From positions 1 through 61,187 of the IMG/VR virus record IMGVR_UViG_3300021446_000106: 61,187 bases of DNA. The stretch is one strand, 5' to 3'. A program made the position numbers and the translations under genes. The DNA comes from a virus. Lineage: Duplodnaviria; Caudoviricetes. Every line of letters starts with the position of its first letter. The first letter of the stretch is position 1. The notes beneath the pieces are model-generated. The model was not told where the DNA came from. It made no database searches and saw only the letters and a program-made list of their open reading frames with translations. Below are positions 2,021 to 47,167 of this stretch, piece by piece.

Positions 2021-5000
2021 TTATTCGAACGCGCCGAGGCCAGTCTGTTGCTGTCCTCGAACTGCGGCTTCGGGGTCAATGTCTATTGCGTGGAGTATTT
2101 CTTCGAGCGGCCGAATCAACGTGACGTTCGTCATTCGTGCCGCGTCAATCTGTAGGTCGTCTTCTATCTCAGACAAGTCTGATGCCTCGTTAAACGCGAT
2201 TACGTCTATCTTTCGCTGAACGCGCGAGAACGTGCGCGGCTCCAAGTACACTCGCTTCGGTTTGTCGCTGGTTTCTATTTCTGCATCCAAGACCTTGTTA
2301 GCATTCCACACGGCGCGCGGGTGTGCGTCCTGCGGATAACCGTCTTCCGAAAAGGAATAGTAGCCATCTTCGCCTGCGCGGGCCGGGTCTATTTTCTGAT
2401 TGAGGCCGCCGGGAATACCGATGCGGTCCCAATCTACATCCGTAGAAGTTATTTCTTGTGCCGCTTCAAACACCATAGTGCCAACAGTCCCCTGCTCGCC
2501 ATGCAAGATGGCTTCAAGCACAGCTTCTTCGGTCTCTTTTGTCAGAGCCGCGCTATCACTCCGCCGTGAGGCAAAGCCTGTGACTGAAATTTTGGGATTA
2601 TCAAGTTCCCGACCGTCTTTCCACGTGGTCAGATAGGCGTATCGTTTCTTCTTGCCGGCTTGGAAGAACCGCTCCATGTACGCCTCGACCTCAATGTCCC
2701 AGAGGTTGTCTTCCGCAGGAACGCCCATGTCCTCGGCCAGCTCTGGATACACAACGTTGTTCAGTTCGTCACACAAATCTCGCGCACCGTCGAGGCACTT
2801 CCCGCGGGGCCAGCTATCGTTGAACTTGATGTAGACGCTGTCCGAATCGCCGTACAGCACATCGTGGCCCTCAGCCTCGACACACTCTGCCGTGCGCTTA
2901 ATTACGGATTGGCCAGTTGTTGTCACAGAAGCCGCCACATCTTTATCGTACAGGAAGAAGTATTCCCAGCCAAGAGTACCGTAGATTGACTGACCGACCG
3001 GCTGGAAGCGCCCATTGCGTCCCGCGAGAAGTGTGTGGTTGTCGGCGACAGTGACGCAGTAGACCCCGTTCTCTGCCTGTTCGGTTCCCGTGTCGCGGCC
3101 CGCGCGGAACTGTCTTGTAACATCCCAATGTACTCGCCAAGCACTAGAGTCTCTATTATACCGTGGTGTGTGGCCGGTCTCGACAAGCAGTCTCATTACG
3201 TCGTCGCGGAGCTCTTCTGACTTGGTGGTATATCTGTGTCCCCTGTGGTTTCCGTCGCCAGCCATAAGGACGCCAAACAGCAGACTTTTCATATCCGGCG
3301 ACCAGTTAAAGATTGCGTCAGGGATTTGCATGTTCTCTGAGCCACTACCACAGAGGCGCTCCAATACTGTCGCAAGAACGCCGGCTCCAGTAATCTGAAA
3401 GCTTCGGTCGCCTTTATAGTAGCTCAACCCAAGCGAATCAAGCAACCCTTCTATCTGTGTCCGGTATGGGTCTTTTTCTTGTGAAATGTTGATTGACGTA
3501 GCCCGCCCTCTGGTCGTGGTTTCGTACTCTTTCTTCGTGCTCGTGTATATCGACCCCTCAGATATATACCACCCTATAAGTTTTATGAACTGGGGCGCGG
3601 GTATTTCTGGGTCAATCTTACCGCACTTTTGTCGCGGCTCGGAGATTTTCTCGCCGACCGTCCGGTACTCGTCTTCGGAAAGGAAATCGCGCAAGTCTAT
3701 CGAGTCTGGCGTCTCACCATCTGGCACGCCCCACTTGTTGGGCATTTCATAGCCGCCGCTGTTGAGTAGGTCTCCAGCTTCGACAAACGAGTAACCGTCT
3801 TCCGACACATACCCCGTCTGCCGACTGACAAGCATCCGGTGGTTCGGCGTAACCTTGAAGTCCGTGCCGCTGTTCCGAATTGTTACAAGCCCGTCGTCGT
3901 AATCGGGGTATGCGTGCGTATCTGTGACGGGCTTCACCTCCATCGCTCCTGTATCGGGGTTGACCGAATAGACAGGGTCGCCAACCGAGAGTTCACGGAT
4001 ATTCTGAACCCCGGCTGGCGTCATTACTTCTGTATCAGGAGAGAAACAGTTTGTGATAGTTTTTGCCGTCAGGTACTTTTTGGCCCATTTCTCGTACTCT
4101 TCGTCACTCTCCGCGGCGTCCCGTTTTTCCTTGTAGTCTTTCTTGAGTGACAGGGATTCGTCAATAAGCTCTTTGAACAGCCCATCTTTGTCAAGTCTAA
4201 ACTCTGCGCCATTGGGCGCCTCAGCAGTTTGGGTTTCTGCAGGAACCGGCTCGCCTGCCCTATCCACGCCATCGGTAATCTTCGTTTCCGGTGACGCATT
4301 GAGCATGGCCATCGTGTACGGGTACAGGCTCGCCAAGTCAATCCCGACGACGTTCTCGGCCACCCCCTCGTAGGCATCGAACACGTGGGCGCCCTCGTAA
4401 TCTTCATCGCCTTCATAACTGGCAGTTGGCGGTACCACGTCTTTCTCCGCGAGCTTCCTGCGGCACAACATTTCGATAAACGAGTTGGCGTTGTAGGATT
4501 CCTCGAAATCCACCCCCACTTCGCGGCGAAGGGTGTCCCGGAATTGGATGACATCCGCTTCCCTGTTAATCCTGACGGCAAGGTCAACGTCGCGTGCGTT
4601 GTACTCCAAGAAGCGCGCCGGGTTCTCGTCGTAGAGGTCGAAGAACGTGCCGTCGAACTGAATCTTTTCGGCACCGAGCACTTCCTGCGCGACATCATCT
4701 AACGAGTAGGAGCGAAGTTCGGTGAAGGAGTTGGCCTTATAAACCTTGAGCAAATCGTAGACCGTTCGGCCCTTGATACGCACACTACGCCCATGGCCGG
4801 CCCACCCCAAGGGAGACAGCGCGTTCTCGTCCAACCCCTCAAGCTTTGTCATACGCTCAATGATGAACGGGATGTCGAAGTCGTCAGCATTCCAGCCGGT
4901 CACGAGGTCCGGGTCAACGCCTTGGAACCACGACCGAAAGGCAATCAGCATCCGCCGCTCCGTCGGTTCGCATCGAACTTGGTCAAGCCCATCTGGACAG

Positions 5001-5224
5001 CCATCCGGGAAACATTCCTCGATAGTCCGGCCGTCCAAGTCAATAAAACCAACGACTTCGTCTTCGTAGGAGTCATGGGCGACAATACTGAGGATTCGTT
5101 CTTCGCCAAGTTCCGGGAAGCCTGCAGACCTATCATCCGTTTCGATGTCAAGGGTGCACACCCGAGGCTCCAACTGTGTAAACTGCTCGTATTCCTCATC
5201 TGAGACAATTGTAGGGTCAACCAT
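2021..5224 (-). CDS. polB: Family B DNA polymerase (exonuclease and polymerase domains) with intein
   Basis: ExoI DIETD, ExoII WNADDFD, ExoIII YNARD; motif A DLASLYP, motif B KTITN/SIYG, motif C YGDSDS, KKRY. Confidence 0.97.
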   Translation of the reverse strand: MVDPTIVSDEEYEQFTQLEPRVCTLDIETDDRSAGFPELGEERILSIVAHDSYEDEVVGFIDLDGRTIEECFPDGCPDGLDQVRCEPTERRMLIAFRSWFQGVDPDLVTGWNADDFDIPFIIERMTKLEGLDENALSPLGWAGHGRSVRIKGRTVYDLLKVYKANSFTELRSYSLDDVAQEVLGAEKIQFDGTFFDLYDENPARFLEYNARDVDLAVRINREADVIQFRDTLRREVGVDFEESYNANSFIEMLCRRKLAEKDVVPPTASYEGDEDYEGAHVFDAYEGVAENVVGIDLASLYPYTMAMLNASPETKITDGVDRAGEPVPAETQTAEAPNGAEFRLDKDGLFKELIDESLSLKKDYKEKRDAAESDEEYEKWAKKYLTAKTITNCFSPDTEVMTPAGVQNIRELSVGDPVYSVNPDTGAMEVKPVTDTHAYPDYDDGLVTIRNSGTDFKVTPNHRMLVSRQTGYVSEDGYSFVEAGDLLNSGGYEMPNKWGVPDGETPDSIDLRDFLSEDEYRTVGEKISEPRQKCGKIDPEIPAPQFIKLIGWYISEGSIYTSTKKEYETTTRGRATSINISQEKDPYRTQIEGLLDSLGLSYYKGDRSFQITGAGVLATVLERLCGSGSENMQIPDAIFNWSPDMKSLLFGVLMAGDGNHRGHRYTTKSEELRDDVMRLLVETGHTPRYNRDSSAWRVHWDVTRQFRAGRDTGTEQAENGVYCVTVADNHTLLAGRNGRFQPVGQSIYGTLGWEYFFLYDKDVAASVTTTGQSVIKRTAECVEAEGHDVLYGDSDSVYIKFNDSWPRGKCLDGARDLCDELNNVVYPELAEDMGVPAEDNLWDIEVEAYMERFFQAGKKKRYAYLTTWKDGRELDNPKISVTGFASRRSDSAALTKETEEAVLEAILHGEQGTVGTMVFEAAQEITSTDVDWDRIGIPGGLNQKIDPARAGEDGYYSFSEDGYPQDAHPRAVWNANKVLDAEIETSDKPKRVYLEPRTFSRVQRKIDVIAFNEASDLSEIEDDLQIDAARMTNVTLIRPLEEILHAIDIDPEAAVRGQQQTGLGAFE
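2990..4048 (-). mobile_element. LAGLIDADG intein (353 aa) in PolB motif B
   Basis: Begins CFSPDT, block B VTPNH, LAGLIDADG-like LIGWYISEG and LFGVLMAGDG, block F VYCVTVADNH, ends GQ before +1 Ser; removal restores KTITNSIYG. Confidence 0.95.
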
Positions 5225-37695: not shown

Positions 37696-39108
37696 ATGGG
37701 AGCAGTTCAAGACCAAATACAACAGAAGGTAGAGGCCGGGGAGTACGAATTCGCTCTCGATAGTTCGAAGGCTGTCGTTCGGCAGTCTGGCGGCGGCGGT
37801 GGCACTCCACGACCAGAACAGGCACCAGCACAGGATATTGACCGGTTCCGGCGGATTGCCGATACTGACCCGCACATCAAAGAGGCTGTCAATACGCTGG
37901 TCGATTATCTGGTCGGGTCTGGGTTTACCGTTCGGCCCGCAAATATTCCGGGCACTGAGACAGAGCAGACTGACGAGGACATTGCAGAGCTCAAGCGCGC
38001 ACTTGAGGCGTCTGAGTTTGAAAGTGTCCTTTCGAATTGGGCTTGGCACGCACTCGTTGACGGCACGGGGTTCTTGGAGATAATCGTTGAGGATGACTAT
38101 TTCCGCCCAAAGGTGTTGCCGACGGAGGATATGGAAATCCAGACTGACGAGTTTGGCAATATCCAGTCTTACATTCAGAGCTCGGCAAATGGAGACGATA
38201 TTGAGTTTGATAAGCACGAGCTGGCAATCCTTCGGTTCCACCGGCATCCTGACGAAGACTTCGGGCACTCTGTCATTGAACCCGTGCAGGAACAAGTTGA
38301 CATCCTGCGCGACATGGAGATTGACACGGCGCGGTTTGTTGCCACAAAAGCGTACCCGCCAATTCTGTGGCAGTGTGGCAGCGAGGAACGGCCGTGGACG
38401 CAATCCGAGATTGATGACTGGCTCGATGAAATAGAAAGCATTGAGCCGGAGTCCATGCTGGCTGTGGGCCATGACGTTGATGCAGAACCTGTTGGGGTCA
38501 CGTCAACGTCCAGCACATCTGGCGCGATGCGGCTTGAGTCGACGTTCAAGCACTTCATGCGCCGTGTGGCGACCGGCATGGGGATTCCGGCAGACCTGTT
38601 AAACAATGACGTGCTGAATGGCAACGAGCTACAGGCCGTCATGCCAAAGTTTGACCGCCGCATCAAGCGCTATCAGAAGGTTATCAAGCACGCTGTTCGG
38701 TATCAGATTTTTCCGTCAATTCTGGGCGATTCGACGGCTGTTGAATACAGCGACCTCTTGCCAGAGTTTGAGTTTGGCAAGCATTCGTCCGAGGAAGAGC
38801 GGCTTGAGGCTGACCTTGCGCTGCGGCTGGTCAACAATGGGATGCTAACACGGGAGGCAGCGGCAAAGCGGCTGGGCATCGACCCAGAGACTGAGCTGCC
38901 GACTGATGAGACCCTTGATGAACAGGTCCAACTCATTAATGACCTTGCTGGCCGTGGCGACGATATTCAGAACCCGCAAGGTGGGCGCCCAACTGATACC
39001 GGCGGTGGAACACAGTCTGCTGGGCGCGAAGTCCAAACCCGCCAGAACCCGTCTGCTGATAACTCAGGCAACCAAGATAGACCACAACAGGGAGCTACAG
39101 AGGAGTGA
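37696..39108 (+). CDS. Portal protein
   Basis: Size, position after terL, DFGHS and GIPADLL motifs. Confidence 0.88.
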   Translation: MGAVQDQIQQKVEAGEYEFALDSSKAVVRQSGGGGGTPRPEQAPAQDIDRFRRIADTDPHIKEAVNTLVDYLVGSGFTVRPANIPGTETEQTDEDIAELKRALEASEFESVLSNWAWHALVDGTGFLEIIVEDDYFRPKVLPTEDMEIQTDEFGNIQSYIQSSANGDDIEFDKHELAILRFHRHPDEDFGHSVIEPVQEQVDILRDMEIDTARFVATKAYPPILWQCGSEERPWTQSEIDDWLDEIESIEPESMLAVGHDVDAEPVGVTSTSSTSGAMRLESTFKHFMRRVATGMGIPADLLNNDVLNGNELQAVMPKFDRRIKRYQKVIKHAVRYQIFPSILGDSTAVEYSDLLPEFEFGKHSSEEERLEADLALRLVNNGMLTREAAAKRLGIDPETELPTDETLDEQVQLINDLAGRGDDIQNPQGGRPTDTGGGTQSAGREVQTRQNPSADNSGNQDRPQQGATEE

Positions 39109-39113
39109 TGTAG

Positions 39114-39353
39114 ATGGACGAGGACGAAAAAGAACGGATATTATATCGTCTTGATGCACGGACAAAGCGTGTTGACGAAAACATAAATCGTATTGACGAG
39201 AAAGTGTCCGACAATGAAGACGATATTGAAGAGATTAAGACCGTTACTCTTAAAAACCGAAAAGACCTCAAGTATGGGAAAGGCGTGATAGGCTTTATCG
39301 CGTCGACGGTTGCGGGAATCGCGGCAAAGATTATTGGGATACTAAGTATCTAA
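39114..39353 (+). CDS. Coiled-coil protein with C-terminal TM helix
   Basis: Heptad-like N-terminus; hydrophobic C-terminus. Confidence 0.65.
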   Translation: MDEDEKERILYRLDARTKRVDENINRIDEKVSDNEDDIEEIKTVTLKNRKDLKYGKGVIGFIASTVAGIAAKIIGILSI

Positions 39354-39356
39354 AGT

Positions 39357-40010
39357 ATGACGTTAACAATAGACGACACCGACGGGAACTTCGGCATGAA
39401 CATCGAGTATTCGGTGTTGCCGACGGAGGCCCTTTCGGAGGGGTTTAACCAGTACGGTGTCCGCGAGAACGATGATGGGTCGGTCGATGTGCGCTTCAAC
39501 GCAATGGAGCCCGGCGTTCGGCGCGGTGTCGAAATAACTCCTGAATTTCTCAGGAGTGTAGCTGGGCCCAGCGGCAGAATTCCGCTCCAGATTGACCATT
39601 CGAAGAGCCAGCGTGCAAACGTTGGTGCCATCGAGGCAGAGAATGTCAAGTTTGGCGGCGACTTCCTGCAAGTCCAGACGCATATTCCAAATACCGGGTC
39701 CAGCATTCGTGATGACATTATTGCGGACTTTACGCATGAGCCGCCGCAGGTAACGGACATTTCGGTGGCGTTTGACCCGCAGACAATTGAGGTTGAGAAC
39801 CCGGGAGGCGCTGATAATCCGCGGTTTGTCGATGGCGAAATTCGAGAGTTCTCGCTGACCCCGTTCCCGGCTGGCTATGATAATGGCGGGCTGACGCCGG
39901 AGTTTAGTTCAGCAATTGAACAAGCAGTGCTTGACGATGATGGCGACGACACGGAGGAGTCCGCACGAAGCCGGCTTGTCGAGCGACCACACATATTAAT
40001 CCAAAACTAA
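39357..40010 (+). CDS. Prohead protease
   Basis: LQIDH, DISVAF, EFSLTPFPA. Confidence 0.85.
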   Translation: MTLTIDDTDGNFGMNIEYSVLPTEALSEGFNQYGVRENDDGSVDVRFNAMEPGVRRGVEITPEFLRSVAGPSGRIPLQIDHSKSQRANVGAIEAENVKFGGDFLQVQTHIPNTGSSIRDDIIADFTHEPPQVTDISVAFDPQTIEVENPGGADNPRFVDGEIREFSLTPFPAGYDNGGLTPEFSSAIEQAVLDDDGDDTEESARSRLVERPHILIQN

Positions 40011-40993: not shown

Positions 40994-42016
40994 ATGGCAC
41001 CTGACGGACACGAAATTCTGACGAAGGACGACGTTCCGCTGTACGAGCTTGGTGACACGGCCATGGAGATGATTGATGTCTTCAACGAGGAGGCATCGCG
41101 TGGCTTTGTCGATATGTTCTCCCGAGAGGTTGACTCGCGTACGTTTATTACGCGAACTGGCGACCTCGAATGGGAGGAGGTTGCTGAGCTTGAGCACGCG
41201 CGGACGGGTACGATTGATGACTACCAGATGGCGTTCAACGTCGATACCTACGCCCGTGACCTCGGGATGACGCGTGAGTTTGTTGAGGACTCGCCGCGCG
41301 ACTTTATCGAGGACCACATCGCGGAGATTGTCGAAGGCGGGCGCCAGAAGATGTTCGACGTTGTCTTCGACGTGCTGCGCAACGGTATCGCCGACGGGTC
41401 CCAGCTCTGGTATGACCCGGAGGACCACGGGGCGTACTCGTTCTCGCGGACGCACAATCACGTCTACACTGGTCTAAACAACGACGCGAACGACACGTCG
41501 GAGGTTCTGTTTAACGACGCCGATTCGCGCACGCCGACTGAGATTGTCCGCGAACTGTCGGGCGAGCTGACCCACCACGGGTACGAGCCTGATGCGGTCA
41601 TTACGACCCGCGAGATGGCGGATTACTTCATCGAGGAGCGGCACGACGGCTTCGGGTCACAGTTCCACGTCCCGCAGGCTGAGAACCTCGTTGACAACCC
41701 GACTGATAGGCCCATGGAGGTCATGCAGGTGAACGGTGCGACCATCATGCAGACGGCGTGGCTCAAGCCTGACAGCAATGGCGACCACCCGTTCTATCTG
41801 TACGATTCGAGCCAGAATCCTGTCTACACGAACACGGTTCGGGCCATGGAGCTCACTGATAATAGTGGTGCTCCGATTGGTGGCGCGGGCGGCTTCCGGG
41901 GCGACCCCGGCGCACTTCTCGGTACCTATGGCACGATGCGGTTTGGGAGCAAGTTTGCTGACCCGCTTGCCGGTGTCGAGCTGACTGTGACCGACGACGA
42001 AGTGTCGACCAGCTAA
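40994..42016 (+). CDS. Major capsid protein (HK97 fold inferred)
   Basis: 340 aa, GAGGT RBS, biased codon use, synteny. Confidence 0.85.
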   Translation: MAPDGHEILTKDDVPLYELGDTAMEMIDVFNEEASRGFVDMFSREVDSRTFITRTGDLEWEEVAELEHARTGTIDDYQMAFNVDTYARDLGMTREFVEDSPRDFIEDHIAEIVEGGRQKMFDVVFDVLRNGIADGSQLWYDPEDHGAYSFSRTHNHVYTGLNNDANDTSEVLFNDADSRTPTEIVRELSGELTHHGYEPDAVITTREMADYFIEERHDGFGSQFHVPQAENLVDNPTDRPMEVMQVNGATIMQTAWLKPDSNGDHPFYLYDSSQNPVYTNTVRAMELTDNSGAPIGGAGGFRGDPGALLGTYGTMRFGSKFADPLAGVELTVTDDEVSTS

Positions 42017-42039: not shown

Positions 42040-42444
42040 ATGGCAACCACAGACACTGAGCTCATTGCCGAAGTCAGAGCGCTTACTGATTATCCGGCAG
42101 ATGTTATGTCTGATGCGGACATTCAGAAGCTTGTTGACATCGGCAAGGAGGAGCTCCGGGCAAGTTTTGGCGACCCAAGCTACGTTTTTTACACGGGCGA
42201 CCAGAGTGCTGACCGGGCGCTGTTCTGGTTTACCTGTCTGGGAACAAAGATTAAAGCCGGCGAGATTGCGTCAGTAAATCTTGAAATTGCTGACATCATT
42301 GCCCAGAAGCCGGCACAGGGGCACTACGATGTGTGGTTTGAGTTATTCCGCGCTCGCTTAAAAGAGGCTGAGCGTGCGGTGCGGGATGAAGCCGGGCCTG
42401 CACAGGCGGAGCTTGAACGAGAGAACCGTAGCTATGGACAATGA
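42040..42444 (+). CDS. Head-tail adaptor (putative)
   Basis: EVRALTD...SDADI; synteny. Confidence 0.65.
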   Translation: MATTDTELIAEVRALTDYPADVMSDADIQKLVDIGKEELRASFGDPSYVFYTGDQSADRALFWFTCLGTKIKAGEIASVNLEIADIIAQKPAQGHYDVWFELFRARLKEAERAVRDEAGPAQAELERENRSYGQ

Positions 42445-42821
42445 CAGGACCGCTGCTTGGTGGCAACCGGACGACTGTTTCAGCAATCATTTATCGGACG
42501 GGAAACGAAGCAACAATCCGTCGTCCTGATGGGAATGCGACAGAAAACCGCTACGGGAAGGTTACTGACACAGACGTGACGTACTCGGCACAGGCGACTG
42601 AACGGTTCCGGCGCATCTATCAAACCGAAAGCGAACCGGGGTCGGAACAGTTTGTTGCTGGTGGTCGGGTGTCTGATGAGGAACCGGGCATTGCGGCACG
42701 ATATAATACGGTTGCGCAAGAAGGCGACCGGCTCCTGTTTGAAGACGGCAACGAGTACACGTTAGACAGCCGCGTCGACCGAGATACACACGTCGAGTTT
42801 CGAACGACATTAGTGACATAA
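42441..42821 (+). CDS. Head closure protein (putative)
   Basis: EGDRL...EY beta-rich pattern; synteny. Confidence 0.6.
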   Translation: MTGPLLGGNRTTVSAIIYRTGNEATIRRPDGNATENRYGKVTDTDVTYSAQATERFRRIYQTESEPGSEQFVAGGRVSDEEPGIAARYNTVAQEGDRLLFEDGNEYTLDSRVDRDTHVEFRTTLVT

Positions 42822-44245
42822 TGGGCGACCTTGAGATAGATGTTACTGTTCGGAACAAGGACGTTGTCGATGACATTGAGGATAGCATCGAAGACGGTAT
42901 TGAAAACGCGCTGAAACCATCGCGCCCAGACAGTCTGGGGAAGCGGATGGAGCGCGCTATGCAAGAGTATCTTCGTCAGCGAGGGAAGGTGTGGACAACG
43001 GAACTTGTCAATTCATTTGACATTAGCTTTGAGGTTCGGAACGGTATTTGGGTCATGCTCGTGCAGAACGACGCTGAACACGCCGCGCCCATGGATACCG
43101 GTGCCCGATACGGTGCAAAAGGGCCGCCGCTTGCTAAGCTAATTCCGTGGGTCCAACAGAAGATGCGTGGCTACCGCGTTGAGGGTGGCCAGCTGGTCGT
43201 CTACAATGATTCCCCAACGGTAATGACAGATGGGGGCACACCGTCGCAAGAGCCCTCGAAGGAACACGTCACGCTGTCGTTGCCAGATGACCTGCAAGTT
43301 GACAACGTGCAAACGTTTGAAGAAGCCGGAATGGCGGGCGGCGTCAACATCGAAAACTCATATTATGTTGAGTTTGAAAATGGCGACTTTGCATACTTTA
43401 GTGGAAATATTAACGTTGGCGACTTCGGGTCAGACCCCGGCACCGTAAGAAACGAACAAGTCTTTACGCGCATTTCAGAAGAGCTTGGGTGGCAGCTTGG
43501 GCCAGAGAACAAACGCGGTGCAATCATTGACCCAGAAGAAGGGTCGCTTACACCGGGCAATTTCCAGCGGTGGGTTGACAATAGCGTCGACCTGCAAAAC
43601 GACATCTATGATGGGCGGTTTGGAAAGCCCGCAGATTACGAGTATACTGCGCCCGAGTTTTTGGACGAGCACGGCGAATGGCTGGCCAAAACGCAAGCTG
43701 TTGACGCAATTGTTGGCAACACAGACCGACATCTTGCAAACGCCAAACTTGATGACGAGAACGTGCCGCACGCAATTGACAACGGCGGACACCATTTGCC
43801 AACCGGCTCTGCTGTCGAAGATAGAATTGACATTGGTTCAGTCTTGCCACCGTCTGAGTTTGAAAACTTGAGCGAATTCCCTGAGCTTGAGGCAAAGCTG
43901 GAAGACTACTTCGAACAACAGCGCGCGTTCCTGCGGGACATACTTGAGAATCACGGCGATGCTATCATTGAACACGTAAAAGACGTGCACGGAGAGAAAG
44001 ACCCCTTAGTGCTCCGTATGGAAGAGCTGGTAGAGGCTGACGTAGACAACATCATTAAGGATATCGAAATTGCACAGTCGGGGCTGTTAGACACGCTTGC
44101 TGGTCGTGACGACATGGACCCCAAACAGCAGTATGCGTCAACAGTAAACACGCTGGAGGCATCGACTGGCTTAGATGCTGATGAAATCTTTGCTGACATT
44201 AGTGATACTGTTGACAAGATACTGAAAGACTTCGATGATTTATGA
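42821..44245 (+). CDS. HK97 gp10-like neck N-terminal half fused to HipA/PI3-PI4-kinase-like domain
   Basis: WTTELVNS...HAAPMDTG...PP...LIPWV, then RNE, FQRWV, DAIVGNTDRHLAN, AIDNG. Confidence 0.8.
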   Translation: MGDLEIDVTVRNKDVVDDIEDSIEDGIENALKPSRPDSLGKRMERAMQEYLRQRGKVWTTELVNSFDISFEVRNGIWVMLVQNDAEHAAPMDTGARYGAKGPPLAKLIPWVQQKMRGYRVEGGQLVVYNDSPTVMTDGGTPSQEPSKEHVTLSLPDDLQVDNVQTFEEAGMAGGVNIENSYYVEFENGDFAYFSGNINVGDFGSDPGTVRNEQVFTRISEELGWQLGPENKRGAIIDPEEGSLTPGNFQRWVDNSVDLQNDIYDGRFGKPADYEYTAPEFLDEHGEWLAKTQAVDAIVGNTDRHLANAKLDDENVPHAIDNGGHHLPTGSAVEDRIDIGSVLPPSEFENLSEFPELEAKLEDYFEQQRAFLRDILENHGDAIIEHVKDVHGEKDPLVLRMEELVEADVDNIIKDIEIAQSGLLDTLAGRDDMDPKQQYASTVNTLEASTGLDADEIFADISDTVDKILKDFDDL

Positions 44246-44463
44246 TTGAGGTGTATCGGTACGACCGGCAAAATGAGCAGGCTGGGCTTTCGTTTCGTAT
44301 CAACAACGATGCAACGGTCGACGGGAGCGACAAGAACGCAAACCGTGTGCGGCAGATACTCAGCAACTATGCCGGTGACCCCGTGGCCGACCTGAACTAT
44401 ATCGAGGACATTATCGAAGCGCGCTACAATAATCAGTATTATGCCACAAACCGTCAATCTTGA
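44242..44463 (+). CDS. Small protein coupled to the kinase gene
   Basis: ATGA overlap. Confidence 0.65.
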   Translation: MIEVYRYDRQNEQAGLSFRINNDATVDGSDKNANRVRQILSNYAGDPVADLNYIEDIIEARYNNQYYATNRQS

Positions 44464-44629
44464 AAATTACGACGAGGAAGTTGTGGCAAAAGCCTTCTGG
44501 CTACAGGAACACATCCGCCGCACGGGTCTCGACGGTGTCAACTACTCTGCAGTTGGCGAGGGTGTTGCCGAGAATGTTGGCGACGATGTTGTTGCAAACG
44601 AAATCGATAAGGAACTCAAGTCGCTATGA
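44441..44629 (+). CDS. Probable detached C-terminal half of the gp10-like neck protein
   Basis: AKAFWLQEHIRRTG matches the AF.I...I...G segment that normally follows PP..WV. Confidence 0.6.
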   Translation: MPQTVNLENYDEEVVAKAFWLQEHIRRTGLDGVNYSAVGEGVAENVGDDVVANEIDKELKSL

Positions 44630-45372
44630 AAGAGTACGATATACTCAAGTATCTCCTGTTGGACATTGAGAACGCGACAAGCGCGAGCGTCGATGTCCGA
44701 ACAGAAGGGGGCGACCAGAGCGCGGACCCGCCGGAAGTGGTCGTGTCGTGGAGCTCGGAGCGGCTTGACAGTTATGCAGGCCATCGGCCGCCAACAGAGA
44801 CACTTAGAGACGCTAATGGTAATGCAAATGGTAAGCGCCACCAAGCGTACTTTGAGATGACCGCTGATATTCTGGTTCGGCACACGGACGAGTTCCAGCG
44901 GGACACAATACTTGACGAACTACACACCTACTTTGTGCCATGTGAGGCCGACCCGTCACTCTTTGACGAAGACACTGCGCAATGGCGGATTGGTGTGAGT
45001 GGACCGCGTGGTGTCGCGTTCGTTGAGCCAGACTGGTATGAATCTGGTATTCCGTTGTCGTTTGTCTACAAGAAAGACATTGACGTGACAGACAGCGGAC
45101 GCCTGCCCGATACCATTGAGTCGATAGATATTGCTGTTAACGATAGAACGTTGTACGTGCCGCCAAACACGACATATACGATTCCGCAAGAAGCCACTCG
45201 ATATTATCGGCTTGTTGATGTTGACGGTACGTTGGAAATAAACGGCACACTGTATGCGCAAAAGACAAGCATTGGCGATGGAACGCTGGTCTTTAGCGAT
45301 TCGGGCAAGCTGGTCGCTGACGACACGCCGTATGATGAGATTGACGGCACGGAAAGCAAGACACTAACTTAA
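44626..45372 (+). CDS. Tail terminator/completion protein (putative)
   Basis: Position before the sheath gene. Confidence 0.6.
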   Translation: MKEYDILKYLLLDIENATSASVDVRTEGGDQSADPPEVVVSWSSERLDSYAGHRPPTETLRDANGNANGKRHQAYFEMTADILVRHTDEFQRDTILDELHTYFVPCEADPSLFDEDTAQWRIGVSGPRGVAFVEPDWYESGIPLSFVYKKDIDVTDSGRLPDTIESIDIAVNDRTLYVPPNTTYTIPQEATRYYRLVDVDGTLEINGTLYAQKTSIGDGTLVFSDSGKLVADDTPYDEIDGTESKTLT

Positions 45373-45377
45373 TATAC

Positions 45378-46748
45378 ATGGTTACGATTGGAACTGACGC
45401 TCTTCCGGGCACGATTACAACTGTCGACAGCACGGATAACGTTGGGCGCGTCTTGACTGCGCCTGCGGTGCCGGTGCTTGTTGGGCAGGCGTATCTGTCG
45501 GAGGGCAATGCAAATGCAGATGAGGTGTATCGTATTAGCCGCGCCAGTCGCGCGTCGTCTCTCTTTGGGCCGTCGGACAAAAGTATGCTGACGCACGCGC
45601 TTCACGGAGCACTGACTGAGGGAGCAAGTGTTGTCTACGCCGTGGCAGCCACCGAACAGGATGTTTCGGGTGAAGACCTGAGCGGTGCTTCGGGAACGGG
45701 ACACACGCTGGCAAACGCGCCGGTTGTCGAAAATGCCGAAGACGTGACGTTTACGATTAATTCGACAACCAAAGACACGGTCCTCTACTACGATGGCGAC
45801 CCGTCAAATGCGTCTCCCGGTAGCGATGAGGTCTATCTGAACCCGCAGACCGGCAAGTTTGAAGCCGACGAGTCGCTGGGGAACACTGGCGACGAGGCTG
45901 ATTACAGCTACGCTGACTATACAGATACGTTCGACCAGATTGACACGGCAACTATCCTTGATGGCGACACGTACCTGCGTAGTGTAGCCGATTTCATTGC
46001 TGTTGTTGATGAGAACAACGGGCCGGTTACGGATGCCAAGGACAAGTCCGAGTCCATGGAGCAGGAAGGCTGGTTCAACATTGCTGTCGGCGGGGCTGGC
46101 GAGCCGTACATTGTTGACAAGGAAACGAACACTGACGACACGGCGAGCTACTCGAATCCGTTTGACACGTCGCGGGCGCAGCTTGTGTACCCGACGCGCG
46201 ATAGTGATGACAACACGATTATTGGCGAGTACGTTGGGGTTCGAGCGCAGCTCGGCATCGATGAAATCCCAATGTTTAGTCGGTTCTCGTCTGTCACGTC
46301 GCTACACACGACGCTCTCACGGTCGGAACAGGAGAATCTTGTCAATGCATATGTGAACCCGCTGGAACCCCGCCGGGCCAGTGTGCGTATTGTTGACGAC
46401 CTGACGACCGTTTCAGATAGTAACGCTGAGGGCGCAGCATGGCGACGCGGGTTTGCACGGCTCGTGACTGACTATGTAACTGAGCGCGCCGATGAACGTG
46501 CTGAGCCGTTTGTTGGTGACTTTAACGAGCGAAGTGTCTTGAATGCGCTTCGGGGCAACGTCTCGTCTGACCTCAAAGACTTATATGAGTCGGGCCAGAT
46601 TGAGGGGTATAGTCTTGTTGTTGAGAAGTCGGATTCGTTGAATGCCATTCTCGACATTGGTATCGAGACGGCTAAACCGCTGCGCAACATTGAGATTACG
46701 GTGACTGCTGGCGACGTTGCTGGCAGCGCAACTGGAGGGACCAACTAA
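45378..46748 (+). CDS. Tail sheath protein
   Basis: LPG start, VNPL, FVG.FN, KPLRNI; followed by a tube-sized gene. Confidence 0.88.
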   Translation: MVTIGTDALPGTITTVDSTDNVGRVLTAPAVPVLVGQAYLSEGNANADEVYRISRASRASSLFGPSDKSMLTHALHGALTEGASVVYAVAATEQDVSGEDLSGASGTGHTLANAPVVENAEDVTFTINSTTKDTVLYYDGDPSNASPGSDEVYLNPQTGKFEADESLGNTGDEADYSYADYTDTFDQIDTATILDGDTYLRSVADFIAVVDENNGPVTDAKDKSESMEQEGWFNIAVGGAGEPYIVDKETNTDDTASYSNPFDTSRAQLVYPTRDSDDNTIIGEYVGVRAQLGIDEIPMFSRFSSVTSLHTTLSRSEQENLVNAYVNPLEPRRASVRIVDDLTTVSDSNAEGAAWRRGFARLVTDYVTERADERAEPFVGDFNERSVLNALRGNVSSDLKDLYESGQIEGYSLVVEKSDSLNAILDIGIETAKPLRNIEITVTAGDVAGSATGGTN

Positions 46749-47167
46749 TGGCTGACCGAAAAGAGGCTGCGGCAGACATCATTGTCTCGCTTGAGAATGA
46801 GGGCGAGATTGTTGTCGAGCAGCTGTCGCTGACCAAGGAAGTTGACATTGAGACCATCTACGGTTCCGGCCGCACCCTGCCCGACGCCTATTCGATTAAT
46901 CAGGTGTCGTATCAGGGGTCGATGGAGCTGATGGGGAACAAGCTTGAGCTTGAGGAACAGCTGTTCGATAACAACGGGATTCCCGTTGACGTAACGATTA
47001 ACATTACGCACTTCAATGGCGAACTAACCTCGTTTACCCAAGTGCTGGCAACGAGCGAAGGGTACGAGATGAGTGCGGGCGAAACCACGACGACTTCGTT
47101 CGAATTCGTTGCAATGGGCAAGGAGCACGCCGGCAACGCTGACGCTGAGCCGACTGACCTGCCCTAA
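46748..47167 (+). CDS. Tail tube protein
   Basis: 139 aa after sheath; YQGSM, FEFVA. Confidence 0.8.
   Translation: MADRKEAAADIIVSLENEGEIVVEQLSLTKEVDIETIYGSGRTLPDAYSINQVSYQGSMELMGNKLELEEQLFDNNGIPVDVTINITHFNGELTSFTQVLATSEGYEMSAGETTTTSFEFVAMGKEHAGNADAEPTDLP

What the first reader, a model, noticed from the sequence alone, without database searches (positions are those of the whole stretch)
42821..44629. Neck gene split by a HipA/PI3K-like kinase plus a small partner ORF: candidate virion-delivered kinase effector
Seen: at the HK97 gp10-like position between head-closure and tail-terminator genes, the first ~115 aa look like a neck protein. A linker containing MTDGG follows, then a domain with intact catalytic-loop GNTDRHLAN and metal-binding IDNG motifs. 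A translationally coupled 73-aa ORF comes next, then a 62-aa ORF resembling the missing neck C-terminus. Established: phage MuF head proteins carry C-terminal toxin domains with downstream immunity genes; HipA-like kinases arrest growth. Inference: an analogous polymorphic effector cassette on a different structural carrier, packaged or released (possibly cleaved at GG), with the 73-aa protein as immunity and the neck protein reassembled from two chains.
Basis: partly seen in the sequence, partly recalled or inferred. Interest (0 to 1): 0.85.

Follow-up and report, generated by a model that had tools for sequence, protein, structure and literature searches.

The report
Split tail-completion gene carrying a kinase
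In this salt-loving archaeal virus, the gene for a small protein that normally sits at the head-tail junction has been split in two by an inserted kinase-like enzyme domain and a small companion gene, which suggests that the virus carries an enzyme into the cell with its DNA.

Summary
ORF 42821-44245 (474 aa) is an HK97-gp10/"Ne1" tail-completion N-domain (aa 1-~125). It is joined by a Gly/Asp linker (MTDGG, aa 135-139) to a PI3K/PI4K-like kinase fold (aa ~150-430). A 73-aa ORF follows with an ATGA overlap, then a 62-aa ORF.

The new key result is that the 62-aa ORF is homologous to the C-terminal domain of unsplit 161-209-aa proteins, which have the form N-domain, ~30-aa linker, C-domain. One of these sits at the same genomic position in a related viral contig. 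The gene really is split.

The same slot in relatives holds other cargo: an HExxH metallopeptidase-like domain in 42 of 53 long non-kinase fusions, DUF3626, or an unknown ~900-aa extension in HF1/HF2.

The 73-aa ORF has a homologue only beside the kinase of Mincapvirus isolates. It has none beside the HExxH cargo of HRTV-25.

Delivery into the host and an immunity role for the 73-aa protein remain inference. One caveat is that this virus's kinase has lost the ATP-anchoring lysine (S194), which 24 of 33 relatives keep.

Partly known already: GenBank annotates the Mincapvirus homologue as "phosphatidylinositol kinase", and a 2020 paper noted the divergent Nep1 C-termini. Verdict: a new variant of virion-borne polymorphic effector fusions. 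Interest 0.7.

The parts
42441..42821 (+). Head-closure (SPP1 gp16-like) gene, the upstream neighbour. Context only.
   Evidence: Same position as HRTV-11 gp15 and HRTV-25 gp18, both annotated 'SPP1 gp16-like head completion protein'. 49% identical to the first 112 aa of the L008 fusion ORF.
42821..43195 (+). [quoted passage not shown]
   Evidence: Profile hits to 17 stand-alone 116-150-aa proteins and about 110 fusions. PF04883 is above its cut-off in relatives P0024, P0058 and P0068. The domain aligns at 40% identity to unsplit P0033, whose model matches 9mu2_P at Z 10.8. The window's own model of this part is of low confidence (pLDDT < 50).
43196..43267 (+). Linker, aa 126-149, containing MTDGG (aa 135-139, nt 43223-43237).
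   Evidence: D137 and G138 are invariant in the 9-sequence alignment A1. Gly/Asp/Ser-rich linkers follow the LIPWV helix in fusions of every cargo type.
43268..44110 (+). PI3K/PI4K-like kinase-fold domain, aa ~150-430. Catalytic loop GNTDRHLAN is aa 299-307 (nt 43715-43741). IDNG is aa 319-322 (nt 43775-43786). Ser194 (nt 43400-43402) stands where relatives have the beta3 Lys.
   Evidence: Foldseek PDB: PI4KIIalpha 4hne_B, E 1.5e-5, prob 1.0; 66 hits at E <= 1e-3. VIA: 4yc4, Z 13.0, rmsd 4.2 A, 235 aligned, model 153-420. Profile against PDB: VPS34, E 4.2e-4, with the catalytic loops aligned. N300, D302, N307, I319 and D320 are invariant in 34 sequences; E212 is present in 33 of 33; the column of residue 194 has K in 24 of 33 and S in the window.
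44111..44245 (+). Acidic, helical C-terminal tail of the 474-aa protein (aa 431-474) and its stop codon.
   Evidence: helices 434-449 and 453-473, low pLDDT. Poorly conserved in A1.
44242..44463 (+). 73-aa ORF, translationally coupled (ATGA). It is linked to the kinase cargo and is a candidate partner (inhibitor, immunity protein or chaperone).
   Evidence: Overlap read. One 76%-identical homologue, P0158. Homologous to HRTV-11 gp17 at the same position (E 5e-5; SW 54 against 23.4 +/- 4.1, 0 of 2000 shuffles). No similarity to HRTV-25 gp20. No Pfam hit.
44441..44629 (+). 62-aa ORF: the detached C-terminal domain ('Cdom') of the tail completion protein.
   Evidence: phrog_31935, E 1.5e-11. phmmer hits the C-terminal ~50 aa of unsplit 161-209-aa proteins (P0033, E 1.5e-14). 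A family HMM hits 31 of 156 proteins, all of that class. Alignment. Separate-ORF homologues stand before the terminator gene in HRTV-25, HRTV-11 and Hardycor2.
44626..45372 (+). Tail terminator (annotated 'SPP1 gp17-like tail completion protein' in relatives), the downstream neighbour. Context only.
   Evidence: phrog_12281, E 1.2e-22, over aa 21-171 of 248. Synteny.

Best explanation
SHOWN:
- The locus is a tail-completion-protein (TCP; HK97 gp10/lambda gpZ/SPP1 gp16.1 family, 'Ne1') gene.
- Its ancestral two-domain form is N-domain, ~30-aa linker, helical C-domain, 161-209 aa in all. That form has been interrupted inside the linker.
- The N-domain now continues in frame into a PI3K/PI4K-like kinase fold.
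- A small 73-aa gene that travels with the kinase follows.
- The C-domain is made as a separate 62-aa protein.
- In related haloarchaeal myoviruses the same slot holds other enzyme-like cargo: an HExxH metallopeptidase-like domain, DUF3626, or unknown domains. So the N-domain acts as a conserved carrier for exchangeable C-terminal modules.

INFERRED:
- In the one case solved (80alpha/SaPI1), the TCP is a low-copy protein inside the tail that touches the DNA end and the tape measure protein, and it is thought to leave with them. On that basis the fused kinase would be built into the virion and enter the host ahead of the genome.
- There it would modify host (or viral) targets at the very start of infection.
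- The 62-aa piece would re-associate with the N-domain to complete the neck function.
- The co-translated 73-aa protein would be a cognate partner that silences or chaperones the kinase in the producing cell and is left behind.
- In this particular virus the kinase may be weak or atypical, because the beta3 lysine has been replaced.
For: 1. Split gene.
- The HMM of the 62-aa family hits the C-termini of 31 of 156 proteins, all 161-209 aa, each with the N-domain in front (E down to 8.6e-19). None of the long fusions has this domain in frame.
- Contig L007 has an unsplit 189-aa gene exactly between the head-closure and terminator genes.
- The unsplit relative P0033 folds confidently as one unit (pLDDT 90.6, pTM 0.79).

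2. TCP identity.
- PF04883 is above its cut-off in relatives (5 of 53).
- The best PDB sequence hit of the family profile is 9mu2_P, 'HK97 gp10 family phage protein' (E 0.099).
- Structure search: 9mu2_P, Z 10.8, rmsd 2.6 A, 107 of 109 residues aligned; the next hit is Z 6.4.
- VIRFAM assigned Ne1 to the first 129 aa of the HF2 homologue (PMC7230728, passage read).

3. Kinase.
- Fold and motif evidence.
- PF00454 is above its cut-off in relatives P0013 (48 bits), P0030 and P0088.

4. Exchangeable cargo.
- Of the 156 proteins: 17 N-domain only, 28 kinase, 84 other extension.
- 42 of 53 long non-kinase fusions have a conserved T..HExxH motif, and so does HRTV-25 gp19.
- On a tree of 127 N-domains, the well-supported branches alone force at least 4 kinase, at least 3 HExxH and at least 3 unsplit changes.

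5. Partner linkage. The 73-aa ORF is homologous to HRTV-11 gp17, which stands beside a kinase 27% identical to the window's. It is unrelated to HRTV-25 gp20, and the HF1 group has no such ORF.

6. Delivery logic.
- SPP1 gp16.1 is needed to route DNA into the cytoplasm (PMC11099176, abstract and section 12 read).
- The same kinase family is fused to a portal protein in P0079 (phrog_18178, E 2.5e-182, plus a C-terminal kinase).
- BFVD hits for the kinase model include proteins named portal, ADP-ribosyltransferase and Nudix.
Against: - No virion proteomics or structure places this protein in a particle. The HF2 study identified only four major bands, and none was Nep1 (PMC7230728).
- A folded ~280-aa kinase would not fit a tail lumen of about 36 A, the figure for HFTV1. 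Storage would need another place or an unfolded state.
- TCP location is not universal: T5's TCP sits on the tail tip.
- The window's kinase has Ser at the position where 24 of 33 relatives have Lys. Its nearest relatives have A, S, Q or E there. It may therefore be a pseudokinase.
- Contig L008 has a related kinase gene followed directly by the terminator gene, with no 73-aa-like ORF and no C-domain ORF.
- Only two lineages with genomic context support the link between the kinase and the 73-aa ORF.
- The window protein itself gets no Pfam hit, and its N-domain was modelled poorly.
Confidence: 0.5

Rival explanations
1. The fusion protein is not delivered into the next host. The kinase-like domain acts inside the producing cell late in infection, on virion, assembly or host proteins. 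Alternatively it is an externally displayed neck or collar decoration or binding module anchored by the TCP N-domain. In either case the 73-aa protein is an assembly helper.
For: The gene lies in the late morphogenesis operon and is translationally coupled to its neighbours. The size of the cargo (280 aa here, ~900 aa in HF1/HF2) is hard to fit in a tail lumen of ~36 A. Loss of the beta3 Lys in the window clade fits a binding role rather than a catalytic one. The T5 TCP lies outside the tube, on the tail tip.
Against: The catalytic-loop Asp and Asn and the metal-binding Asp are invariant in 34 of 34 sequences, which argues for chemistry rather than mere binding. The alternative cargo is also enzyme-like (HExxH in 42 of 53, DUF3626), and decorations are not expected to be. 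The same kinase family is fused to a portal protein.
Confidence: 0.25
2. The cassette is a selfish or decaying insertion. A mobile kinase-plus-small-gene module landed in a permissive linker and is tolerated because the two TCP halves still assemble. In this virus the kinase is an inactive relic.
For: The beta3 Lys is replaced in the window and in 8 other sequences, mostly its nearest relatives. L008 shows that this region suffers rearrangements. Unsplit and N-domain-only forms are common (30 and 17 of 127), so cargo is dispensable for the family.
Against: The kinase domain is conserved at 35-83% identity across 8 homologues, with all other catalytic residues intact. The cargo slot is occupied in most family members (112 of 129 N-domain proteins have an extension). 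The small ORF is conserved at 76% identity in a second contig.
Confidence: 0.12
3. Classical toxin-immunity reading. The kinase is a growth-arresting toxin used for superinfection exclusion or for competition between viruses or hosts. The 73-aa protein is a true immunity protein that protects cells carrying the virus.
For: The architecture mirrors MuF polymorphic toxins: a conserved N-terminal virion domain, a variable C-terminal domain, and a small downstream gene that changes with the cargo (PMC5576092, abstract seen in a search listing).
Against: The 10 large ORFs scanned with Pfam gave no integrase or other lysogeny gene, but this was only a partial scan. L008 lacks the small ORF. No fused or longer forms of the 73-aa protein were found. 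The HF1-group cargo has no intervening small ORF at all.
Confidence: 0.1
4. The fusion is an assembly or frameshift artefact of this metagenomic contig.
For: The window is an uncultivated viral contig.
Against: The same continuous ORF occurs in 28 of the 156 proteins examined and in 8 sequenced isolates with the same gene order.
Confidence: 0.01

Closest known systems
Tail completion proteins: 80alpha gp51 (PDB 9mu2 chain P), SPP1 gp16.1, lambda gpZ, HK97 gp10 (PF04883; VIRFAM Ne1)
   Same: The gene sits between the head-closure and tail-terminator genes. The fold of the unsplit relative matches 9mu2_P (Z 10.8). Relatives pass PF04883.
   Different: Known TCPs are single polypeptides of 112-255 aa with no enzymatic domain (PMC11099176, Table 1). 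Here the gene is split into two chains, and the first chain carries a ~350-aa kinase-like extension.
HSTV-2 / HRTV-7 / HRTV-2 / HRTV-11 / HCTV-6 / HCTV-15 gp16 (Hafunaviridae, Mincapvirus). GenBank names it 'phosphatidylinositol kinase'; UniProt names L7TJZ0 'PI3K/PI4K catalytic domain-containing protein'.
   Same: Same architecture and the same order of four genes: N-domain-kinase, a ~75-aa ORF, a ~70-aa C-domain ORF, then the terminator.
   Different: Only 27% identical. The isolates keep the beta3 Lys (GVFKPN) and the window has Ser. The records name the kinase but say nothing about the TCP domain or the split. The main text of the paper describing them does not mention this kinase (PMC8651126, term search). 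Its supplementary tables could not be read.
HF1/HF2-group 'Nep1' (HrrHF2_575, HrrHc2_090)
   Same: The same N-domain is followed by unrelated sequence. Dyall-Smith et al. 2020 noted that proviral nep1 genes share only the first 387 nt with HF2 (PMC7230728). The C-domain ORF follows.
   Different: The cargo is a ~900-aa extension with no Pfam hit and no HExxH motif. There is no intervening small ORF.
MuF polymorphic toxins of temperate phages, and 'polyvalent proteins' of phages
   Same: A conserved virion-associated N-terminal module carries variable C-terminal enzymatic domains, with small cognate genes downstream. Kinase domains occur among polyvalent proteins (PMC5512222, passages read).
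   Different: The carrier is the TCP, not MuF or portal. The hosts are archaea. The insertion splits an essential structural gene. Neither paper mentions gp10 or tail completion carriers (term searches).
Type II phosphatidylinositol 4-kinases (PI4K2A/B), VPS34/PI3K, H. pylori CtkA, Fam20/CotH atypical kinases
   Same: The fold (Z 13.0, 11.8, ~11, ~10.5) and the catalytic loop G-x-x-D-R-H-x-x-N ... I-D-x-G.
   Different: About 14% identity. There are no lipid-kinase accessory domains and the substrate is unknown. The window protein lacks the conserved Lys. HipA does not appear among the listed matches.

Membership tests
HK97 gp10-like tail completion protein (PF04883 / VIRFAM Ne1) | Sequence match to the family model | tested here: inconclusive
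   The window protein gets no Pfam hit at E <= 1. Relatives linked to it at E 1e-20 to 1e-35 pass the 21.4-bit cut-off: P0024 24.9, P0058 23.6, P0068 24.9, covering model positions 1-78. The family profile's best PDB hit is 9mu2_P at E 0.099.
HK97 gp10-like tail completion protein (PF04883 / VIRFAM Ne1) | Fold like a solved TCP | tested here: met
   The model of unsplit relative P0033 (pLDDT 90.6; 40% identical to the window N-domain, 49% to the 62-aa ORF) matches 9mu2_P at Z 10.8, rmsd 2.6 A, 107 of 109 aligned; the next hit is Z 6.4. The test was made on the relative. The window's own N-domain model had pLDDT < 50.
HK97 gp10-like tail completion protein (PF04883 / VIRFAM Ne1) | Gene located after the head-closure gene and before the tail terminator and tube genes | tested here: met
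HK97 gp10-like tail completion protein (PF04883 / VIRFAM Ne1) | Present in tails or virions | not testable with these tools
   No proteomic data for this virus. The HF2 study covered four major bands only.
PI3K/PI4K-like kinase (PF00454) | Pfam gathering score | tested here: not met
   No hit for the window protein. HRTV-11 gp16 scores 25.7 against a cut-off of 27.1. Relatives P0013 (48.0), P0030 (30.0) and P0088 (32.4) pass.
PI3K/PI4K-like kinase (PF00454) | Catalytic loop DRHxxN and metal-binding Asp (the DFG equivalent) | tested here: met
   D302-R303-H304...N307 and I319-D320-N321-G322. These residues are invariant or nearly so in 34 sequences and align to VPS34 GDRHldN...IDFG.
PI3K/PI4K-like kinase (PF00454) | ATP-anchoring Lys in the beta3 strand | tested here: not met
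   In the column of residue 194, 24 of 33 sequences have K and the window has S. The equivalence to the PI3K Lys is inferred from the strand position and the xxFK motif, not from a residue-level structural alignment.
PI3K/PI4K-like kinase (PF00454) | Bilobal kinase fold | tested here: met
   Foldseek: 4hne_B, E 1.5e-5, prob 1.0. VIA: 4yc4, Z 13.0, 235 aligned. The domain's pLDDT is mostly 70-90.
HipA kinase | Sequence or fold match to HipA | tested here: inconclusive
   No HipA entry appears among the listed matches. Weak HipA_2/HipA_C Pfam hits occur only in distant multi-kinase proteins.
Polymorphic toxin / effector system (MuF-type logic) | Conserved N-terminal carrier with unrelated C-terminal domains among close relatives | tested here: met
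   Also PMC7230728.
Polymorphic toxin / effector system (MuF-type logic) | A cognate small gene immediately downstream that changes with the C-terminal domain | tested here: inconclusive
   It holds in the window and in Mincapvirus. HRTV-25 has a different ORF. The HF1 group has none and L008 has none. Only 5 genomic contexts were available.
Polymorphic toxin / effector system (MuF-type logic) | MuF (or another known trafficking) domain as carrier | tested here: not met
   The carrier is a TCP N-domain. There is no MuF hit in Pfam or PHROGs.
Polymorphic toxin / effector system (MuF-type logic) | Toxicity of the C-terminal domain and neutralisation by the partner | not testable with these tools
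   This needs expression experiments.

The most novel reading that the evidence does not exclude
Haloarchaeal myoviruses use the tail completion protein as a one-shot injection vehicle. A single copy, riding at the DNA end with the tape measure protein, carries an exchangeable enzyme (a kinase, an HExxH protease or others) into the cell ahead of the genome. To make room for this cargo slot, the TCP gene has been split into two chains that reassemble in the tail. The small gene that co-varies with the cargo encodes an inhibitor that keeps the enzyme silent in the producing cell. This would be the first injected-effector system described for archaeal viruses, and it would also be direct evidence that TCPs leave the virion with the DNA.
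Probability: 0.35. Interest if true: 0.85.

Novelty: new variant of a known kind. Interest (0 to 1): 0.7.

Why it matters
- Where tail completion proteins sit, and what they do during DNA entry, is a long-standing open question. A location has been solved only for 80alpha and proposed for T5. A natural TCP that carries a bulky, assayable enzyme gives a direct handle on this: is the cargo in the particle, and does it leave with the DNA?
- It would extend virion-borne polymorphic effectors (MuF toxins, polyvalent proteins) to archaeal viruses, where such systems were reported to be scarce (PMC5512222), and to a new carrier.
- It shows an essential structural gene tolerating a split into two chains at an inter-domain linker. 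That marks a natural cargo slot.
- It offers candidate host-takeover enzymes (kinase, metallopeptidase) for haloarchaeal virus-host biology. Cultured isolates are already available for testing: HSTV-2, HRTV-7, HRTV-11, HCTV-6 and HRTV-25.

Tried and rejected
- Complex prediction on the kinase domain (aa 150-474, 34-row alignment) with the 73-aa protein returned 'no answer' (score 0.00). This is no evidence either way.
- The search for related loci with the 9-sequence alignment found 0 loci in viral contigs, 1 weak locus in metagenome contigs and 0 in genome contigs. A degenerate DNA pattern then gave only 3 viral contigs.
- Direct searches with the window protein gave nothing useful: no credible Pfam family and no credible PDB sequence hit.
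- The 73-aa ORF gave no Pfam hit, only chance-level tblastn hits in phages (E >= 0.9), no usable ESM Atlas hit and no longer or fused forms.
- Foldseek on the unsplit TCP model gave nothing at E <= 1e-3; 9mu2_P was rank 3 with prob 0.75. The exhaustive aligner was needed.
- Cleavage at 'GG' was considered and set aside. The motif is part of a generic Gly/Asp/Ser-rich linker seen with all cargo types. The Met before it is not conserved, so internal initiation is not supported either.
- Read-through or frameshift joining of the ORFs was considered. The 474-aa and 62-aa ORFs share a frame but are separated by two stops, and the region between them encodes the conserved 73-aa protein in another frame.
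- Searches for prior descriptions found nothing on a TCP-kinase fusion or a split TCP. One search was badly chosen and returned only cancer-toxin papers.
- The careful tree search did not finish. The quick tree was used. It has few well-supported branches (14 of 124).


Full report
**What the window is.** The window is a whole 61,187-bp uncultivated viral record. CheckV estimates it at 82% complete. It encodes acidic proteins and a myovirus morphogenesis module on the + strand:
- portal, 37696-39108
- protease, 39357-40010
- major capsid protein, 40994-42016
- adaptor, 42040-42444
- head closure, 42441-42821
- the finding, 42821-44629
- tail terminator, 44626-45372
- sheath, 45378-46748
- tube, 46748-47167
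- tape measure, 47949-49748

Gene order and weak protein similarity tie the virus to haloarchaeal myoviruses of the family Hafunaviridae.

**Observation check.**
- The 474-aa ORF ends in an ATGA overlap with a 73-aa ORF.
- The ATG of a 62-aa ORF lies 23 nt inside the end of the 73-aa ORF.
- The 62-aa ORF in turn overlaps the terminator gene by ATGA.
- MTDGG is aa 135-139, GNTDRHLAN is aa 299-307 and IDNG is aa 319-322.
- The fusion is not an artefact. Eight homologues at 35-83% identity have the same continuous architecture, and so do eight isolate records.

**The N-terminal part is a tail completion protein domain.**
- A profile of the 9 close sequences, run against 1.84 billion representatives, found 269 proteins at E <= 0.001.
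- I split the listed 150 plus the first 9 homologues (156 proteins in all) with domain HMMs. The result was 17 N-domain-only proteins of 116-150 aa, 28 N-domain plus kinase, 84 N-domain plus another extension, and 27 kinase hits without a detected N-domain. Two of those 27, P0039 and P0041, were matched from profile positions 2 and 5, so they probably do have the N-domain.
- The window protein itself has no Pfam hit. Relatives do pass the PF04883 'HK97-gp10_like' cut-off over the whole 78-position model: P0024, P0058, P0068; 5 of 53.
- Dyall-Smith et al. reported that VIRFAM assigns Ne1/HK97 gp10 to the first 129 aa of the HF2 homologue. They remarked that proviral copies share only the first 387 nt (PMC7230728, passage read).

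**The gene really is split.** This is the main new result.
- An HMM of the 62-aa ORF family was built from the window ORF, HRTV-25 gp21, HRTV-11 gp18 and Hardycor2_095.
- It hits the C-terminal ~50 residues of 31 of the 156 proteins. All 31 are 161-209 aa and carry the N-domain in front. E-values reach 8.6e-19.
- The window's 62-aa sequence alone gives E 1.5e-14 to P0033.
- None of the long fusions contains this C-domain in frame.
- In the alignment, the unsplit proteins match the window's aa 1-~125 at their N-termini and the 62-aa ORF at their C-termini. The C-terminal match carries the motif AFWLQxxIxxxGI. A variable, acidic linker of ~30 aa lies between the two parts.
- Viral contig L007 carries such an unsplit 189-aa gene exactly between the head-closure and terminator genes.
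- With a 43-row alignment, unsplit P0033 folds with mean pLDDT 90.6 and pTM 0.79.
- An exhaustive structural comparison against 48,161 PDB representatives puts the 80alpha/SaPI1 tail completion protein (9mu2 chain P) clearly first: Z 10.8, rmsd 2.6 A, 107 of 109 residues aligned. The next hit has Z 6.4.
- The aligned range in the model runs from residue 10 to residue 197, which reaches into the C-domain. The tool reports only the first and last aligned residues, so I cannot say which helices correspond.
- Foldseek alone did not find this match at a significant E-value. The family profile's best PDB sequence hit is the same chain, but weak (E 0.099).

**The kinase domain.**
It is poor for aa 1-151 and acceptable for aa 152-427 (pLDDT mostly 70-90).
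- Foldseek against the PDB gives 66 matches at E <= 0.001. The listed ones are kinases, led by PI4K type II alpha (4hne_B, E 1.5e-5, prob 1.0), CotH, VPS34 and PI3K.
- The second-look aligner gives PI4K2A/B at Z 13.0 (rmsd 4.2 A, 235-239 residues aligned, model 153-420), H. pylori CtkA at 11.8, Fam20 at about 11, and VPS34/PI3K at about 10.5.
- A 34-sequence family profile hits VPS34 (E 4.2e-4) and PI4K2B (E 1.8e-3) in the PDB. The family's G-N-x-D-R-H-x-x-N ... A-I-D-N-G-G aligns there to G-v-G-D-R-H-l-d-N ... h-I-D-F-G.
- PF00454 is above its cut-off in relatives P0013, P0030 and P0088. HRTV-11 gp16 falls just below it (25.7 against 27.1).
- In BFVD the best match is HSTV-2 L7TJZ0, already labelled 'PI3K/PI4K catalytic domain-containing protein' (E 1.7e-19).
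- The kinase fold is therefore well supported. It is nearer to PI3K/PI4K-type atypical kinases than to HipA.

**A caveat on catalysis.**
- Across 34 family members, N300, D302, N307, I319 and D320 are invariant. E212 is present in 33 of 33.
- The strand motif x-x-[FWY]-K has Lys in only 24 of 33 sequences.
- The window has Ser194 at that position. P0002, P0003, P0005-P0008, P0011 and P0056 have A, S, Q or E.
- The cultured Mincapvirus homologue keeps the Lys (GVFKPN).
- That this Lys is the ATP-anchoring beta3 lysine is my inference from its position. If it is, the window's clade has an atypical or weakened kinase.

**The slot is polymorphic.**
- All-against-all BLAST grouped the sequence after the N-domain into 7 clusters among 112 fusions, of sizes 46, 30, 28, 4, 2, 1 and 1. 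The cluster of 30 is the unsplit C-domain class and the cluster of 28 is the kinase class.
- Among the 53 long non-kinase fusions, 42 carry a T..HExxH motif in a conserved context. This is a metallopeptidase-like signature. Pfam supports it only weakly (SprT-like and DUF6782, one member each).
- One fusion (P0055) has DUF3626 above its cut-off.
- HRTV-25 gp19 (581 aa) has the HExxH motif. The ~1037-aa HF1/HF2-type protein has neither the motif nor any Pfam domain.
- All fusion types share a Gly/Asp/Ser-rich linker after the conserved LIPWV helix.
- I built a quick maximum-likelihood tree of 127 N-domains from 117 columns. Only 14 of 124 inner branches are well supported. On it the five architecture classes need 32 changes, against 71.6 for shuffled labels. 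The well-supported branches alone force at least 4 changes for kinase, at least 3 for HExxH and at least 3 for the unsplit form.
- Cargo has therefore been gained, lost or exchanged repeatedly on this carrier.

**The 73-aa ORF.**
- It has no family assignment.
- It has one 76%-identical database homologue.
- It is homologous to HRTV-11 gp17, the ORF at the same position beside a kinase only 27% identical to the window's. BLASTP gives E 5e-5. The Smith-Waterman score is 54, against 23.4 +/- 4.1 for shuffles, and 0 of 2000 shuffles reach it.
- It is unrelated to HRTV-25 gp20, the 105-aa ORF that follows the HExxH cargo.
- The HF1 group has no ORF between the fusion gene and the C-domain ORF.
- This is the pattern expected of a cargo-specific partner, but it rests on few contexts.
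- Against it stands contig L008. It has a kinase gene 48% identical to P0009 that is followed directly by the terminator and sheath genes, with no 73-aa-like ORF and no C-domain ORF. In that contig the head-closure protein is fused in frame to the last ~25 residues of the N-domain. L008 may be a deletion derivative, a defective element or a misassembly.

**How it most likely works.**

Shown:
- a split two-chain TCP;
- a kinase-fold cargo in frame with the first chain;
- a cargo-linked small ORF;
- an exchangeable slot.

Established by others:
- In 80alpha/SaPI1 a single TCP sits inside the tail. [quoted passage not shown]
- SPP1 particles lacking gp16.1 eject their DNA outside the cell (PMC11099176, abstract).

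Inferred:
- The 62-aa chain re-associates with the N-domain.
- The 73-aa protein keeps the kinase inactive, or assists its assembly, in the producing cell.

Indirect support: the same kinase family is fused to the C-terminus of a portal protein in P0079 (phrog_18178, E 2.5e-182). It also resembles domains in phage proteins named portal, ADP-ribosyltransferase and Nudix, which is the make-up of the 'polyvalent proteins' predicted to travel with phage DNA (PMC5512222).

Difficulties:
- A folded kinase domain would not fit a ~36 A tail lumen (the HFTV1 figure).
- The T5 TCP sits elsewhere.
- No proteomic evidence exists.
- This virus's kinase lacks the lysine.

**Comparison with what is known, and novelty.**
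- GenBank records of 2021 already call the Mincapvirus homologue 'phosphatidylinositol kinase'. UniProt labels the HSTV-2 protein likewise.
- The 2020 HF1-group paper noted the Ne1 domain with divergent C-termini.
- I found nothing in print on three points: the split of the TCP into two chains with an unsplit ancestor-like form, the recognition of the TCP as a carrier of alternative enzymatic cargo (kinase or HExxH), and the cargo-linked small ORF. The searches were made, with term searches inside PMC8651126, PMC5512222, PMC5576092, PMC3853047 and the 2025 bioRxiv preprint.
- I rate this as a new variant of a known kind, namely virion-protein-borne polymorphic effector fusions. What is new is the carrier, the host domain and the gene-splitting twist.

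**Limits.**
- Only five genomic contexts could be compared: the window, Mincapvirus, HRTV-25, the HF1 group and L008, plus the unsplit L007.
- Most homologues are protein-only representatives of unknown origin.
- The structural match to the TCP was obtained on a relative, not on the window's own chain.
- The complex prediction for the kinase with the 73-aa protein gave no verdict (see Tried and rejected).

Noticed in passing
window 2021-5224 (- strand): A 1067-aa family-B DNA polymerase has a Hint/intein-like segment (aa ~388-491) between the exonuclease and polymerase domains. Hint_2 scores 28.2 bits against a cut-off of 28.4. This is probably an intein.
   Followed up: no
L008 7539-9716 (IMG/VR contig): A 483-aa ORF joins a head-closure protein (aa 1-112, 49% identical to the window's) in frame to the last ~25 aa of the TCP N-domain and a kinase domain (48% identical to P0009; catalytic loop DFH instead of DRH). 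The terminator and sheath genes follow directly, with no 73-aa-like ORF and no C-domain ORF. It may be a deletion variant, a defective element or a misassembly.
   Followed up: partly
proteins P0079 (1143 aa), P0085, P0094, P0105, P0152 (representative library, no context): The same kinase family occurs at the C-terminus of a portal protein (P0079: phrog_18178, E 2.5e-182, aa 26-586; kinase at aa 874-1122). It also occurs two to three times per chain in 1000-1500-aa proteins that carry NUDIX domains, an architecture like polyvalent proteins.
   Followed up: partly
L005 3932-5991 (HRTV-25 gp19-gp20) and 42 of 53 long non-kinase fusions: The commonest cargo on this TCP carrier has a conserved T..HExxH motif (metallopeptidase-like). 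In HRTV-25 a 105-aa ORF unrelated to the window's 73-aa ORF follows it. This may be a second cargo-partner pair. A virion protease could act on the proteinaceous S-layer, but that is speculation.
   Followed up: partly
window 44626-45372: The tail terminator is 248 aa, while its PHROG family (168 positions) matches only aa 21-171. The homologues in HRTV-11 and HRTV-25 are about 170 aa. The window protein therefore has an extra ~75-aa C-terminal extension of unknown nature (weak DUF5666 hit, E 0.07).
   Followed up: no
window 39114-39353: A 79-aa ORF directly after the portal gene has a hydrophobic C-terminus. It is in the same position as Hardycor2 HrrHc2_055, which is annotated with a predicted C-terminal transmembrane domain.
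   Followed up: no
window 1-61187: ARAGORN found no tRNA genes. Genes at about 2-34 kb lie on the - strand and genes at 34-61 kb on the + strand, and the GC skew changes sign at about 34 kb.
   Followed up: no
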